From: a virus
Taxonomy: Duplodnaviria; Heunggongvirae; Uroviricota; Caudoviricetes
Length of the DNA stretch: 12,595 bases
Virus record (IMG/VR): IMGVR_UViG_2541047122_000015
Direction: 5' to 3' (one strand)
Of this stretch, positions 9,001-12,000 are shown in pieces. The position numbers are program-made. Positions within the stretch are counted from its first letter, which is position 1; each line of letters starts with the position of its first letter.

Positions 9001-12000
9001 GCACCTTCTCATCTTATTCACTTCAACGGAGTGCGATTTCTTGGCCCCTACTCTACTGAATGAGAACAGGACCAGATAAATAGCCCGGCCCATGCGCCGG
9101 GTTTTTCTTTGCATATCCCCTCCTGTTATCTGCCCCCTTAAAAAATAAATCACTTTAAAAATCAGTTAAGTAATAATTTCTCGCCCTTAAAAAGCACCAA
9201 CGGTATTTACATGAAAATCACCGCAAGTTATATTTATTTCAAGCCAGAAACATCGCGCCCTTACACAGGGCTACATAAATCAGTCGTACGGCGCGACTTA
9301 ACCCGCCGCAAAATGCTCTTTAACAATCTGGAGCTTTACAGCGTCAATGACCTGTTTAGACCCCTACACGTAAACGTGCTGTATCATCGGGTGCGATCCG
9401 GTCGATGAGAGAGTATCCCCGCGCGAGAGCGAGAACGGCGTGAGAACGGGCAACACTGGCAGGAAGTTGGCGCTGACCAATACAGGGAATGTTTTGGGGT
9501 GCAGGCGGCACCGCCAAAGCGTTTCTGAGAAAGGACGGTATTGACTGCGTGTGATGTCGGGGCTATATTTGGCGAACACCTCATAAAACGGGTGTCGGGA
9601 TTGCTACCCCGCTGACAATCGAGGCGATACAGACGCGCCAGCGTCTTTTTTTTGTATCGACATACACGCACATCTTATCAATGGTGGGCTGTATGGGGCC
9701 GACTTCGGTCGGGCTGGTTCCCTTGATTGCCAGTTGTAGCAACCCTGTACAGTCCACCGCCAGCGAGCTTGCTACCTCCAGCGGTGGTTATCAATCACCA
9801 ATCAAGGAGGCTGCCATTATGGCTACTATCCCAGTCCTTTCTCAACCTGAAATCACCATTTCCAATGGTCGCGCTGTTACTACGTCCTTTGCCGTTGCCG
9901 AATATTTTTGCAAGCGACACGATAACGTATTGCGCGCCATTGCAAATATTGAATGCTCAGAGAAATTTAACGCCCTCAATTTTGAGGACGTTACCTACAC
10001 CGACGCCAAAGGCGAGCAACGCCCAATGTACCAAATCACCAAAAACGGATTCGTTTTCCTGGTGATGGGGTTCACTGGCAAAAAAGCCGCCGCTTTCAAA
10101 GAAGCCTACATTGCTGAATTCGATCGCATGGAAAAACAACTATGGGAACAGAAACAACTGGCCCTGTCTTCTCCTGCGATGAATATCAATTTTCCTTTAT
10201 CGTGGTTTTCAGAGCATCACCCCTACGCCACGATGAACTATGTTGATCGCAAGGTTATCAGCCTTGATGCTTCCGTGCTCTTCGATATGCCAAGCCCAAC
10301 TATGCGCATCCTCAACGAACTACACAGCAAGGGCTATAACGTCGATGCGGCTGTCGCCGAATTTAACGCCTTCAAGCATCTGACGGAAGAAATGCGCCGT
10401 CAATTGCTGGATATTTCCCGTACATCAGAAAAGTCTTCCCGCTTTGGTTTCAACGTAAATCTTTAATTAACCCCATCCCCGACCACATATCGGGGATTAA
10501 ATTAAATATCTGGATTAATTAACCGGAGGATTTGTCATGCTCAAACCTCACTACGGAACCGCATTAGTTTCTCGCGAGGACGTTAAACCCGGTACAGCAA
10601 TTCTTTACAACGGGCGTTATTACATGGCGTCAGCGAACGTTAATAATGCACTTTACGCACATTCACTGATTGAAAAAATTCGCATTATCTCAGATGCAAT
10701 AGAAGTTTACCTGAACAATAAAGGCCAACCGTTAATCTCACCAGCCTGAAAGGAAATATCATGCTCAATCAAAAAATAAATATCAATGTAAAAAGCGTCG
10801 TAACTCCAGCAGGAACGATAATGGGAGAAGTTTTTATGGATGATAAAATCATCGCCTATTTTGTCGTCCTGTCTGATGAGGCTATTTCTGTTATTGATAC
10901 GGAAGGCAATGTTATGTTTATCGCGGAACATCCAGAAGACATCGCATTACAGGCCGCTGCATATTTCTTCGCTAAGGAGCAGGAGGAAGAATGTAACTGC
11001 CCTGTATGTCAGCTTTCCCGACAAATTAATTTAATGCATTAACCGGAATCAGGAGTTCCGCCATGAACGCATACCTCACCTGCGACCGCATAGAGGAGCG
11101 TCGCTGGATTAATCAGCAAATTCAGGATGAAAAGGATAAATGGATTGATGATCGGGCGCAGGAGCTTATCAGCATGTTCCCCGATAAACCATTGCTTATG
11201 AGCAGCCTTTTTTTACCCAAAGAAGCCCAACTGGCACTCACTGGCGAAAAAGCTGAAGAGGCGTACAACGATTATATCTCAGCGATCGCCTATGCTCGGG
11301 CGGAAGAAGAATGGGAGAGAAAATTCTCCCCCTGTCCTTTCTGATTTTCAGGACCAAAAAATGTTCGATATCGTTGAATTTGTTAAGCAGCAGGAGCGCT
11401 TTTTCTGCGAGGCATTAACTGAACCGACGCTGACATGGGCGAAGGAAAGTCAGTTTGCAATTCAGCAATTCCAGAAAAATGACTTTCTGGCTAAAACAGC
11501 ACAGGCAAATCTGCCCAGCGCACAGAACGCTATCATCAATGTTGCCGCCATCGGCATAACCCTGAACCCGTCCAGCAAGCTGGCGTATCTGGTCCCACGA
11601 GGCGGTGCTGTATGCCTGGATATCAGTTATATGGGACTTCTGCATCTGGCACAGGTCACAGGAGCCATTCAGTGGGGGCAATGCAAACTTGTTTACGAGA
11701 AGGACATTTACGAGTCCAACAGTATTGACTGCGCCCCCACGCACAAATACAACCCATTCGTCGACAGGGGCGCACGCATTGGCGGTTATTGTGTCGTCAA
11801 AACATCCGAAGGCGACTATCTGACCGAAGAGATGAGCAACAGGGAAATCGAAGTCATCAGGGCGTGCAGCAAGGCCGGAGGGAAAGGAGGAACTAGCCCG
11901 TGGGATAGTTTCCCCGATGAAATGGCCAGAAAAGCCATTGTTAAGCGCGCCAGCAAATACTGGCCCCGTCGCGATCGCCTGGATACAGCTATCGACTACC

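What the first reader, a model, noticed from the sequence alone, without database searches (positions are those of the whole stretch)
9111..9330. PL-like promoter with CI operator and a perfect rrn-type boxA, but no N gene
A promoter (TTTACA, 17 nt, TATATT) with a CACCGC operator half-site between its -35 and -10 mirrors lambda PL/OL1. About 75 nt downstream is TGCTCTTTAACAA, a perfect match to the ribosomal boxA as I recall it. No N-like ORF follows: the only ORF of 60 aa or more (9211..9408) starts inside the promoter. This suggests N-independent, Nus-factor-dependent processive antitermination of the early-left operon (rrn-like or put-like), which would be unusual for a lambdoid phage that still uses Q for late genes.
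Basis: partly seen in the sequence, partly recalled or inferred. Interest (0 to 1): 0.55.

Follow-up and report, generated by a model that had tools for sequence, protein, structure and literature searches.

The report
Repressor-controlled early promoter with orphan nutL RNA
This is the repressor-controlled early-left promoter of an O104:H4-type Shiga-toxin phage, and its "ribosomal" boxA is the start of a conserved 160-nt folded leader RNA (the phage phi80 nutL element) that this phage, and most of the roughly 200 related prophage loci sampled, keep although they have no N antiterminator gene.

Summary
The promoter lies at 9206-9234, with a repressor operator in its spacer. The boxA at 9314-9326 is identical to the E. 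coli rrsH leader boxA. No N gene follows.

The window is the immunity region of an Oslovirus/"Eru1" Stx2a phage (100% Ss-VASD, 99.7% P13374/TL-2011c). Lack of N in these phages is already published.

The boxA is not free-standing. It opens a 160-nt RNA (9314-9475) that is 94% identical to the phi80 region annotated as nutL. I found this RNA in 208 prophage loci across Enterobacterales and in 224 of 5426 complete E. coli genomes. It has a five-helix fold: 15 of 26 pairs show compensatory changes, and 97% of cells pair against 25-40% in slid controls. It is not in Rfam.

The phi80 N homologue follows it in only 8 of 208 loci. The only gene shared by most loci is the cI-like repressor upstream.

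In this window N is replaced by an isrK sRNA, a C4 antisense RNA and a Rha antirepressor.

Best reading, inferred and not shown: boxA and the RNA load host Nus factors, so that PL transcripts survive the roughly 440-580 nt untranslated leader without N.

Verdict: real, partly known, moderately novel.

The parts
5815..5831 (.). OR operator TATAACCAAAGGTGATA next to the cI start. It is the reference copy of the repressor-binding 17-mer.
   Evidence: A weaker copy lies at 5767-5783 (9/12), between the -35 and -10 of PR.
5836..6549 (+). cI repressor (237 aa, LexA/S24 type)
   Evidence: phrog_4 transcriptional repressor, E 1.6e-60. Annotated cI in P13374.
9082..9108 (+). Intrinsic terminator ending the cI-methylase-endonuclease transcript, just upstream of OL/PL
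   Evidence: 8-bp stem with 6 G-C pairs, followed by a T tract.
9114..9130 (.). Distal operator-like 17-mer (10/12 to TATAAC-N5-GTGATA)
   Evidence: It is the only 10/12 site in the window. Function inferred.
9206..9234 (+). PL promoter: -35 TTTACA (9206-9211), 17-nt spacer, -10 TATATT (9229-9234). The start site is inferred at about 9241.
   Evidence: It aligns with the annotated pL of phi80. In phage F039 the -35/operator part is swapped while the leader is unchanged from 9228 onward.
9216..9232 (.). OL operator AATCACCGCAAGTTATA inside the PL spacer, overlapping the -10
   Evidence: The operator type changes together with the CI DNA-binding domain in F039.
9314..9326 (+). boxA, TGCTCTTTAACAA, identical to the rrsH leader boxA. 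It is the 5' end of the conserved RNA element.
   Evidence: A boxA-like sequence is present at a fixed distance in all 124 loci examined, carrying 1.8-2.0 bits per position against less than 1 bit in most flanking columns. Annotated 'nutL boxA' in phi80.
9341..9473 (+). Structured RNA domain. P1 9341-9346/9468-9473; P2 9352-9356/9458-9462; P3 9362-9364/9448-9450; P4 9367-9370/9375-9378 (phi80 'nutL core'); P5 9385-9393/9399-9407 with loop CGAUC; variable hairpin P6 at about 9420-9442.
   Evidence: RNAalifold. Pair counts. Covariance model R1 scores 202 bits in the window. Coordinates.
9541..9569 (+). Second promoter (TTGACT, 17 nt, TATATT) for the isrK-like sRNA, downstream of boxA
   Evidence: The position matches PisrK of Gifsy-1 (PMC4825925).
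9576..9655 (+). isrK-family sRNA with intrinsic terminator (stem 9631-9646 plus T8). This is the only good intrinsic terminator in the PL operon.
   Evidence: Rfam RF01394, 61.8 bits against a gathering score of 50. Terminator scans.
9677..9764 (+). C4-family antisense RNA. Its loop at 9721-9729 is complementary to the antirepressor Shine-Dalgarno region at 9799-9807.
   Evidence: Rfam RF01695, 77.4 bits against a gathering score of 45. Exact 9-nt complementarity.
9819..10466 (+). Rha-type antirepressor, the first gene of the PL operon, sitting where N would be. It is followed by kil (10537-10749) and a gam-like gene (11063-11344).
   Evidence: phrog_995, phrog_1760 and phrog_518.

Best explanation
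Region 9111-9330 is OL/PL, the CI-repressed early-left promoter of an Eru1/Oslovirus Stx2a phage.

Its transcript starts at about 9241 (inferred). At +73 it carries a perfect boxA, which opens a conserved 160-nt five-helix RNA (9314-9475) homologous to the phi80 nutL region.

In this phage the N gene has been replaced by an isrK sRNA / C4 antisense RNA / Rha antirepressor module.

Proposed mechanism (inferred): boxA on the nascent RNA recruits host NusB-NusE(S10) and, with them, NusA, NusG and SuhB, as on rrn and CRISPR leaders. The adjoining structured domain, whose only plausible conserved partner is a host factor, stabilises or extends this modification. PL-initiated polymerases therefore resist Rho across the roughly 440-580 nt of untranslated leader. 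They also read more efficiently past the isrK terminator into ant-kil-gam-recT-exo, without any phage N protein. Transcripts from the internal isrK promoter start downstream of boxA. They would stay sensitive to termination and subject to isrK/C4 control.

Shown: the anatomy, the homology, the RNA fold, the conservation of boxA, and the absence of N.
Inferred: Nus loading, antitermination, and the contrast between the two promoters.
For: Identity of PL/OL: operator twins at OR and inside the PL spacer. The operator sequence co-varies with the CI DNA-binding domain in F039. The promoter aligns with the annotated pL/OL of phi80.

boxA: exact and identical to the rrsH leader. It is a conserved island at fixed spacing in all 124 loci examined.

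RNA: 94% identical to the phi80 nutL region. Fold: 96.9% of cells paired, 15 of 26 pairs with compensatory changes, slid controls 25-40%, 0 of 500 shuffles reaching the observed score. The window lineage itself carries a compensatory C-G to U-A change in P5.

Independence from N: phi80-N homologues follow the RNA in only 8 of 208 loci, and the first genes fall into 113 clusters. Within 5 kb either side, only the cI-like repressor is shared by most loci (43 of 49); the next family is in 17 of 49. phi80-N homologues in other phages lack the RNA. No N family appears among the window proteins scanned, or in tblastn of phage genomes. Published: Eru1 phages lack N (PMC8044961).

Need: a long untranslated leader, with one intrinsic terminator in the PL operon.

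Precedent: boxA alone protects long untranslated CRISPR RNAs from Rho (PMC7665894).
Against: There is no experimental evidence for this phage.

In phi80 the homologous fragment was deposited as an N-utilisation signal next to an N gene. That implies at least the phi80 version needs N to pass tL1. I could not read the primary paper.

boxA/Nus complexes are known to counter Rho but are poor against intrinsic terminators, so read-through of the isrK terminator is the weakest step.

The leader is nearly invariant among Stx phages, so within this clade conservation says nothing about selection.

Both collection scans anchored on invariant motifs: P5 and a perfect boxA. Each motif's invariance is partly ascertainment. 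Each is, however, conserved in the set anchored on the other.

Several compensatory changes separate a few subtypes, so they may represent few independent events.
Confidence: 0.5

Rival explanations
1. Orphan relic. The leader is a recombination scar of a phi80-type PL-nutL-N module whose N gene was replaced by the isrK/C4/ant cassette. boxA and the RNA then do nothing useful in this phage, and the early-left genes are expressed from the isrK promoter or by passive read-through.
For: Homology to phi80 stops at 9501, about 165 nt before the position of phi80 N. A second promoter lies downstream. The leader is more than 99% identical among Stx phages, so there has been little time for decay. HK225 carries the element with a mismatched outer helix.
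Against: The element is kept in 208 loci across at least 11 genera, with 113 different downstream gene clusters and N in only 8 loci. The helices are maintained by compensatory changes, including one specific to the window lineage. boxA is far more conserved than its flanks.
Confidence: 0.2
2. It is a true nut site served by an unrecognised N analogue. This would be a non-homologous small protein of this phage, or of a co-resident prophage, acting in trans.
For: N proteins are small, fast-evolving and hard to detect. P4 is a hairpin with an A-rich loop that co-varies, in the place phi80 annotators called 'nutL core'. Some loci have small basic ORFs right after the element, for example the HK225 gp41 type and a 43-aa ORF. 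STEC strains carry many lambdoid prophages.
Against: In the window the first PL-operon genes are ant, kil, a non-basic 93-aa protein and gam. No gene family other than cI is shared by most loci within 5 kb either side. There is no second (nutR-like) copy and no boxA in the PR operon. cro and the next gene are only about 30 nt apart, leaving no room for a nutR.
Confidence: 0.12
3. The RNA is a leader regulator of another kind. It could be a processing or stability element, a decoy, or a Nus-dependent attenuator in which boxA-bound Nus factors promote rather than prevent Rho termination, as in the suhB leader. That would keep PL output low.
For: No Rfam family matches, so the function is open. 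From established knowledge (the E. coli suhB leader), boxA can act negatively. There is 20-nt partial complementarity between the 3' end of the element (9468-9487) and the 3' arm of C4 (9743-9762) (I6).
Against: Its constant position directly after PL, ahead of highly varied operons, fits a general elongation signal better than a gene-specific regulator. The phi80 homologue was deposited as an antitermination signal.
Confidence: 0.13

Closest known systems
Phage phi80 nutL (GenBank M11919 'nutL regulatory signal' 661-938; JX871397 'nutL boxA' and 'nutL core')
   Same: Window 9314-9501 is 94% identical. The position after OL/PL is the same, and boxA, the P4 hairpin and the whole fold are shared.
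   Different: The phi80 boxA has one mismatch (TGCTTTTTAACAA). phi80 has an annotated N gene 165 nt further on. Here that place is taken by isrK/C4/ant, and no phi80-N homologue exists in these phages.
Lambda-type N/nut antitermination (lambda, P22, phage 21)
   Same: A boxA followed by a hairpin in the PL leader of a lambdoid immunity region. Q is used for late genes.
   Different: No N gene and no nutR. The hairpin is 41 nt, not about 8 nt, from boxA, and it has a 4-6 nt A-rich loop within a 160-nt multi-helix domain. boxA is the full rrn consensus rather than lambda's CGCTCTTA. The lambda details are from established knowledge.
rrn leader and CRISPR-leader boxA (Nus-factor antitermination without a phage protein)
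   Same: The boxA 13-mer is identical. A hairpin lies upstream of boxA. A long untranslated RNA follows. boxA acting without N has precedent (PMC7665894).
   Different: Here boxA is fused to a conserved 140-nt structured domain that has no counterpart in the rrnH leader I read. The setting is a repressor-controlled phage promoter.
HK022 put RNA (protein-independent antitermination)
   Same: A cis-acting structured RNA in an early leader of an N-less lambdoid phage. This is the same kind of solution, if the novel reading holds.
   Different: No sequence similarity and no model match in HK022. put is about 70 nt with two stems, starts at +3, occurs in both the PL and PR operons, and needs no boxA (PMC9378689). 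This element is 160 nt with five helices, is single-copy, and is linked to boxA.
P1/P7 c4-ant and Gifsy-1 isrK-orf45-anrP antirepressor control modules
   Same: The downstream part of the leader (9541-9818) matches both Rfam families above their gathering scores and precedes an antirepressor.
   Different: In Gifsy-1 the module is driven by its own promoter. Here it is embedded downstream of PL and a nutL-type RNA, in the slot of gene N.

Membership tests
phi80-type nutL leader RNA | Sequence and structure homology to the phi80 fragment deposited as nutL | tested here: met
   94.1% identity over 188 nt. Covariance model R1 scores 202 bits in the window and 220 bits in phi80.
phi80-type nutL leader RNA | Located just downstream of the CI-controlled PL, on the same strand as cI | tested here: met
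   A cI-like gene lies upstream on the same strand in 43 of 49 diverse loci.
phi80-type nutL leader RNA | Cognate phi80 N gene downstream | tested here: not met
   tblastn finds phi80 N in 22 phage records, none of them Stx/Oslovirus. It is found in 8 of 208 loci that carry the RNA.
Lambda-type N/nut system | boxA in the early leader | tested here: met
Lambda-type N/nut system | boxB hairpin shortly 3' of boxA | tested here: inconclusive
   The P4 hairpin (9367-9378) co-varies and has an A-rich loop. However, it lies 41 nt from boxA and is embedded in a larger fold.
Lambda-type N/nut system | Arg-rich N protein encoded first in the PL operon | tested here: not met
   Also PMC8044961.
Lambda-type N/nut system | Second nut site in the PR operon | tested here: not met
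   No second copy by nhmmer or the covariance model. No boxA within 2 mismatches on the PR-operon strand. There is almost no gap between cro and the next gene.
rrn/CRISPR-type boxA Nus antitermination | Consensus boxA on a long untranslated transcript | tested here: met
   Identical to the rrsH leader boxA. There are 440-578 nt from the inferred start to the first start codon.
rrn/CRISPR-type boxA Nus antitermination | Dependence on NusB, NusE and SuhB, and protection from Rho | not testable with these tools
   Needs reporter assays in nus mutants and with bicyclomycin.
HK022 put RNA | Two-stem RNA of about 70 nt at the start of the transcript, present in both early operons, similar in sequence to putL/putR | tested here: not met
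   BLAST E-values above 1 against the HK022 immunity region. No model match. The architecture differs.
C4 antisense / isrK antirepressor control (downstream part) | Rfam family match above the gathering score, upstream of an antirepressor, with a loop complementary to its ribosome-binding site | tested here: met

The most novel reading that the evidence does not exclude
The boxA-linked five-helix RNA is a self-sufficient early antitermination device that needs no phage protein. It would be a third solution beside N/nut and HK022 put: a nascent RNA that, with host Nus factors or RNA polymerase alone, makes PL transcription processive. It would be widespread in Enterobacterales prophages, including the O104:H4-type Stx2a phages. 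The phi80 protein annotated 'N' would then be an accessory protein or a misnamed one.
Probability: 0.35. Interest if true: 0.8.

Novelty: new variant of a known kind. Interest (0 to 1): 0.58.

Why it matters
These phages carry stx2a in the 2011 O104:H4 and the Norwegian O103:H25 outbreak strains. Their early-left operon begins with an antirepressor, so whatever governs PL read-through bears on prophage induction and toxin release.

More generally, early antitermination in lambdoid phages is textbook N/nut, and HK022 put is the only known exception that needs no protein. Here a conserved boxA-linked RNA is kept in hundreds of prophages that have no N. It is unannotated in 224 complete E. coli genomes, including phi80-carrying laboratory strains such as DH5alpha. 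That gives a concrete, testable candidate for N-independent, Nus-dependent control of phage early transcription. It is also a new structured-RNA family for the databases.

Tried and rejected
- Rfam, at gathering thresholds and at E up to 10 on 9180-9830: only isrK and C4 match; nothing matches the boxA-linked RNA.
- HK022 put: no similarity in the nun-PL-cI region, and no covariance-model match.
- A second, nutR-like copy: none in the window, in 19.7 kb of P13374, in 16 kb of phi80, or in any locus.
- An N gene: none among small ORFs in the leader, in PHROG and Pfam scans, or in tblastn with phi80 N.
- A protein-coding explanation for the conserved region: rejected. There are 1-nt and 2-nt indels in loops, compensatory pair changes, and no family match for ORF 9211-9408.
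- phi80-N homologues in other phages (Kagunavirus, Caminolopintovirus, Feofaniavirus, Hafnia and Vibrio phages): none carries the RNA upstream.
- A universal partner gene within 5 kb either side: only cI qualifies.
- The MAFFT alignment A3 of the diverse set misaligned the 5' strand of P1. It was replaced by the model-guided alignment A4.
- Literature: the phi80 genome paper was not held under its DOI, and I did not try to retrieve the 1985 phi80 N/nutL paper. Searches for P13374 with antitermination, phi80 with boxA or nutL, and nutL with boxA and Shiga toxin returned nothing relevant.
- One genome-contig hit (an Opitutia MAG) and several viral-contig hits were chance matches and failed the model.
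Full report
WHAT THE WINDOW IS

The leader (9064-9830) is 100% identical to Shigella phage Ss-VASD. It is 99.7% identical to P13374 (O104:H4 outbreak), TL-2011c (O103:H25) and phi191, all Oslovirus Stx2a phages.

The P13374 annotation and PHROG scans give the following layout:
- tRNA at 1-73 (-).
- Q at 515-1048 (-), then nin genes, primase and helicase (-).
- cro at 5537-5740 (-), then OR.
- cI at 5836-6549 (+).
- A type II methylase (6644-8113) and endonuclease (8110-9063) in the rexAB position.
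- A terminator at 9082-9108.
- The finding itself.
- A Rha-type antirepressor (9819-10466), kil, a gam-like gene and recT.

The finding therefore sits exactly where lambda has PL/OL and N.

The promoter is TTTACA, 17 nt, TATATT at 9206-9234. Promoter-like matches are no commoner here than in shuffled sequence (5 found, 5.5 expected), so I looked for independent support and found three lines.

(i) A 17-mer in the spacer (9216-9232, AATCACCGCAAGTTATA) is the inverted twin of TATAACCAAAGGTGATA at OR (5815-5831). Against TATAAC-N5-GTGATA the three best sites of the whole window are these two plus 9114-9130, all in OR or OL. A 9/12 site lies between the PR hexamers.

(ii) Phage F039 shares the leader from window 9228 onward (96.7% over 9228-9830; 100% over 9240-9540) but has a different -35/operator segment. 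Its CI has a different N-terminal domain and an identical C-terminal domain. Its own palindrome AATAG-N5-CTATT occurs both in its OR and over its PL -35. The operator thus changes with the repressor's DNA-binding domain. That is what a real OL should do.

(iii) The promoter aligns with the annotated pL and CI operators of phi80.

The boxA TGCTCTTTAACAA is exact at 9314-9326 and identical to the boxA of the E. coli K-12 rrsH leader. ORF 9211-9408 starts inside the promoter and matches nothing.

THE boxA BELONGS TO A LARGER, CONSERVED RNA

A sensitive BLAST showed that window 9314-9501 is 94% identical to phage phi80, starting exactly at boxA. In phi80 this stretch lies between OL/PL and the gene annotated N. 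It falls inside the fragment deposited as "nutL regulatory signal" (M11919 661-938). It also contains the features annotated "nutL boxA" and "nutL core" in the complete genome.

The same element occurs after PL in HK225, Klebsiella phages KO-TP1 and ST13-OXA48phi12.2, and Edwardsiella phage Edno5. In those phages it has diverged to 74-78% identity.

Two scans of IMG/VR, anchored on different motifs, and one scan of GTDB species genomes raised the total to 208 loci. The hosts are Escherichia, Shigella, Klebsiella, Edwardsiella, Providencia, Xenorhabdus, Morganella, Kluyvera, Citrobacter, Enterobacter and Arsenophonus. The element is in 224 of 5426 complete E. coli genomes and is never annotated there. 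This includes phi80-carrying laboratory strains.

THE FOLD

RNAalifold on 41 sequences gave five helices. I built a covariance model (R1) and realigned 37 diverse members with it. On that alignment:
- 96.9% of cells form standard pairs, against 25-40% when partners are slid by 1-3 columns.
- 15 of 26 pairs show changes on both sides.
- None of 500 shuffles reaches the observed covariation. The MAFFT-only alignment gave 98.2% paired and 10 of 26 pairs.

In window coordinates:
- P1 9341-9346/9468-9473.
- P2 9352-9356/9458-9462.
- P3 9362-9364/9448-9450.
- P4 9367-9370/9375-9378 (the phi80 "nutL core").
- P5 9385-9393/9399-9407, with a conserved CGAUC loop.
- A variable hairpin, P6.

The window lineage has its own compensatory C-G to U-A change in P5.

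Three caveats apply. A4 is fitted to the model. Many changes separate a few subtypes. Each collection scan fixed one motif, although each motif is conserved in the set anchored on the other.

Indels of 1-2 nt in loops, together with the pair changes, rule out a coding explanation. Rfam has no matching family even at E = 10.

boxA IS AN INTEGRAL, SELECTED PART

All 124 loci from the P5-anchored set have a boxA-like sequence 70-76 nt upstream of P5. Of these, 42 have the perfect GCTCTTTAACAA core, 63 have the phi80 form GCTTTTTAACAA, and the rest have single changes. The boxA columns carry 1.8-2.0 bits, against less than 1 bit in most flanking columns.

N IS ABSENT, AND THE RNA DOES NOT TRAVEL WITH N

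The window's PL operon encodes ant, kil, a non-basic 93-aa protein, gam and recT. tblastn with phi80 N finds 22 phage records, none of them an Stx phage. Llarena et al. 2021 already reported that Eru1 phages lack homologues of N, CII and CIII (PMC8044961).

Across the 208 loci the first genes fall into 113 clusters. The commonest is the Rha antirepressor (27 loci). phi80-N follows the RNA in 8 loci.

Conversely, phi80-N homologues sit among small early genes of phages from other genera (Kagunavirus, Caminolopintovirus, Feofaniavirus and others) with no trace of the RNA. The protein has no Pfam family and falls in a PHROG of unknown function.

Within 5 kb either side of the RNA in 49 diverse loci, the only family present in most is the cI-like repressor upstream on the same strand (43 of 49). 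The next best is present in 17 of 49.

There is one copy per locus, and none in the PR operon. The window's PR operon has no boxA, no room for a nutR between cro and the next gene, and no convincing intrinsic terminator before Q.

WHAT FILLS THE LEADER

Downstream of the RNA lie:
- A second promoter (9541-9569).
- An isrK-family sRNA with a T8 terminator (9576-9655; Rfam 61.8 bits).
- A C4-family antisense RNA (9677-9764; 77.4 bits). Its loop is exactly complementary to the antirepressor Shine-Dalgarno region.

This is the Gifsy-1 isrK-orf45-anrP and P1 c4-ant type of antirepressor control (PMC4825925). It explains why no ORF follows PL for 440-580 nt.

The isrK terminator is the only good intrinsic terminator on the PL strand in 10 kb of the P13374 early-left operon.

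MECHANISM

The conserved partner of a conserved RNA that is followed by unrelated genes is most simply a host component. The one recognisable motif is a consensus NusB-NusE site.

boxA by itself is known to protect long untranslated RNAs, rRNA and CRISPR arrays, from Rho (PMC7665894).

I therefore favour the following model. PL transcripts of this phage are made Rho-resistant, and perhaps more processive at the isrK terminator, by a boxA/Nus complex that the structured domain reinforces, without N. Transcripts from the isrK promoter, which start downstream of boxA, remain terminable and under isrK/C4 control.

This is inference.

Against it: the phi80 homologue was deposited as an N-utilisation site, and boxA/Nus complexes are weak against intrinsic terminators.

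The rivals are a relic nutL, an unrecognised N analogue, and another kind of leader regulator. None is excluded. Each is scored in its own section.

COMPARISON AND NOVELTY

By homology this is a member of the phi80 nutL family that lacks that family's presumed partner gene. It fails the lambda N/nut membership test on two of four features. It shares the defining motif, but not the surrounding architecture, of rrn and CRISPR boxA leaders. It is not a put RNA.

Already known: PL/OL architecture, rrn boxA, phi80 nutL as an annotation, N-lessness of Eru1 phages, and the isrK and C4 families.

Apparently not described in the literature I could search:
- That the Eru1/Oslovirus Stx2a phages keep a phi80-type nutL with a perfect boxA.
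- That this element is a widespread, covariation-supported structured RNA.
- That it is largely uncoupled from N.

Noticed in passing
window 9541-9655: An isrK-family sRNA (Rfam 61.8 bits) with its own sigma-70-like promoter and a T8 intrinsic terminator sits inside the PL leader. The F039 record annotates it, but none of the other annotated records I examined (for example P13374) does.
   Followed up: partly
window 9677-9818: A C4-family antisense RNA (77.4 bits) overlaps a 46-codon ORF (ATG 9681) that runs in frame into the antirepressor gene, like orf45 of Gifsy-1. The loop at 9721-9729 is exactly complementary to the antirepressor Shine-Dalgarno region at 9799-9807.
   Followed up: partly
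window 9468-9487 and 9743-9762: There is 20-nt, 75% complementarity between the 3' end of the nutL-type RNA (the P1 3' strand and the following bases) and the 3' arm of the C4 stem (I6). It could be chance or an alternative long-range pairing.
   Followed up: no
window 6644-9063: A type II restriction-modification pair (489-aa methyltransferase, 317-aa endonuclease) occupies the rexAB position. It lies downstream of cI on the same strand and ends at terminator 9082-9108, so it is probably expressed in the lysogen.
   Followed up: no
window 1-527 (- strand): Just downstream of Q on the minus strand there is a promoter-like site at 527-500. It is followed by a strong terminator at 469-450 and a tRNA with anticodon CAU at 73-1. 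This is the arrangement of PR'/tR' that yields the StxS-type short RNA in Stx phages.
   Followed up: no
L002 3290-3352 and many IMG/VR loci; window 9508-9526: A second conserved non-coding cassette, CGCCAAAGCATTTCTCCCGCATCAGCGGGTAACGACAGAGGGTAAGG, lies immediately before the start codon of very different first genes in many loci. It looks like a portable hairpin plus ribosome-binding site. The window keeps only its first 18 nt or so, before the isrK promoter.
   Followed up: partly
L133-L137 (Salmonella, Erwinia, Escherichia phage 26, Hafnia and Vibrio phages): Homologues of the phi80 protein annotated 'N' occur among small genes of phages from other genera (Kagunavirus and others), with no nutL-type RNA and no long leader. 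The protein has no N-terminal Arg-rich motif and no Pfam family. This raises doubt about the 'antiterminator N' annotation that has propagated from phi80.
   Followed up: partly
L005 (HK225) 1988-2177: HK225 carries a hybrid element. Its 5' part is phi80-type and its 3' strand of P1 comes from another subtype, so the outer helix is mismatched. This is a natural recombinant that could show whether P1 matters.
   Followed up: no
window 9140-9175; L004 1340-1400; L003 2905-2960: Upstream of PL, all three leader types share an A/T-rich block with repeated AAATCAAC / TAAAAATCA motifs. This holds although their operators differ. It may be an UP element or a host-factor site.
   Followed up: no
window 5506-5537: cro is followed after about 30 nt by a 97-aa gene of unknown function (phrog_852). 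There is no tR1-type terminator and no nutR, and the PR operon runs to Q without a convincing intrinsic terminator. The rightward operon therefore also looks N-independent.
   Followed up: partly
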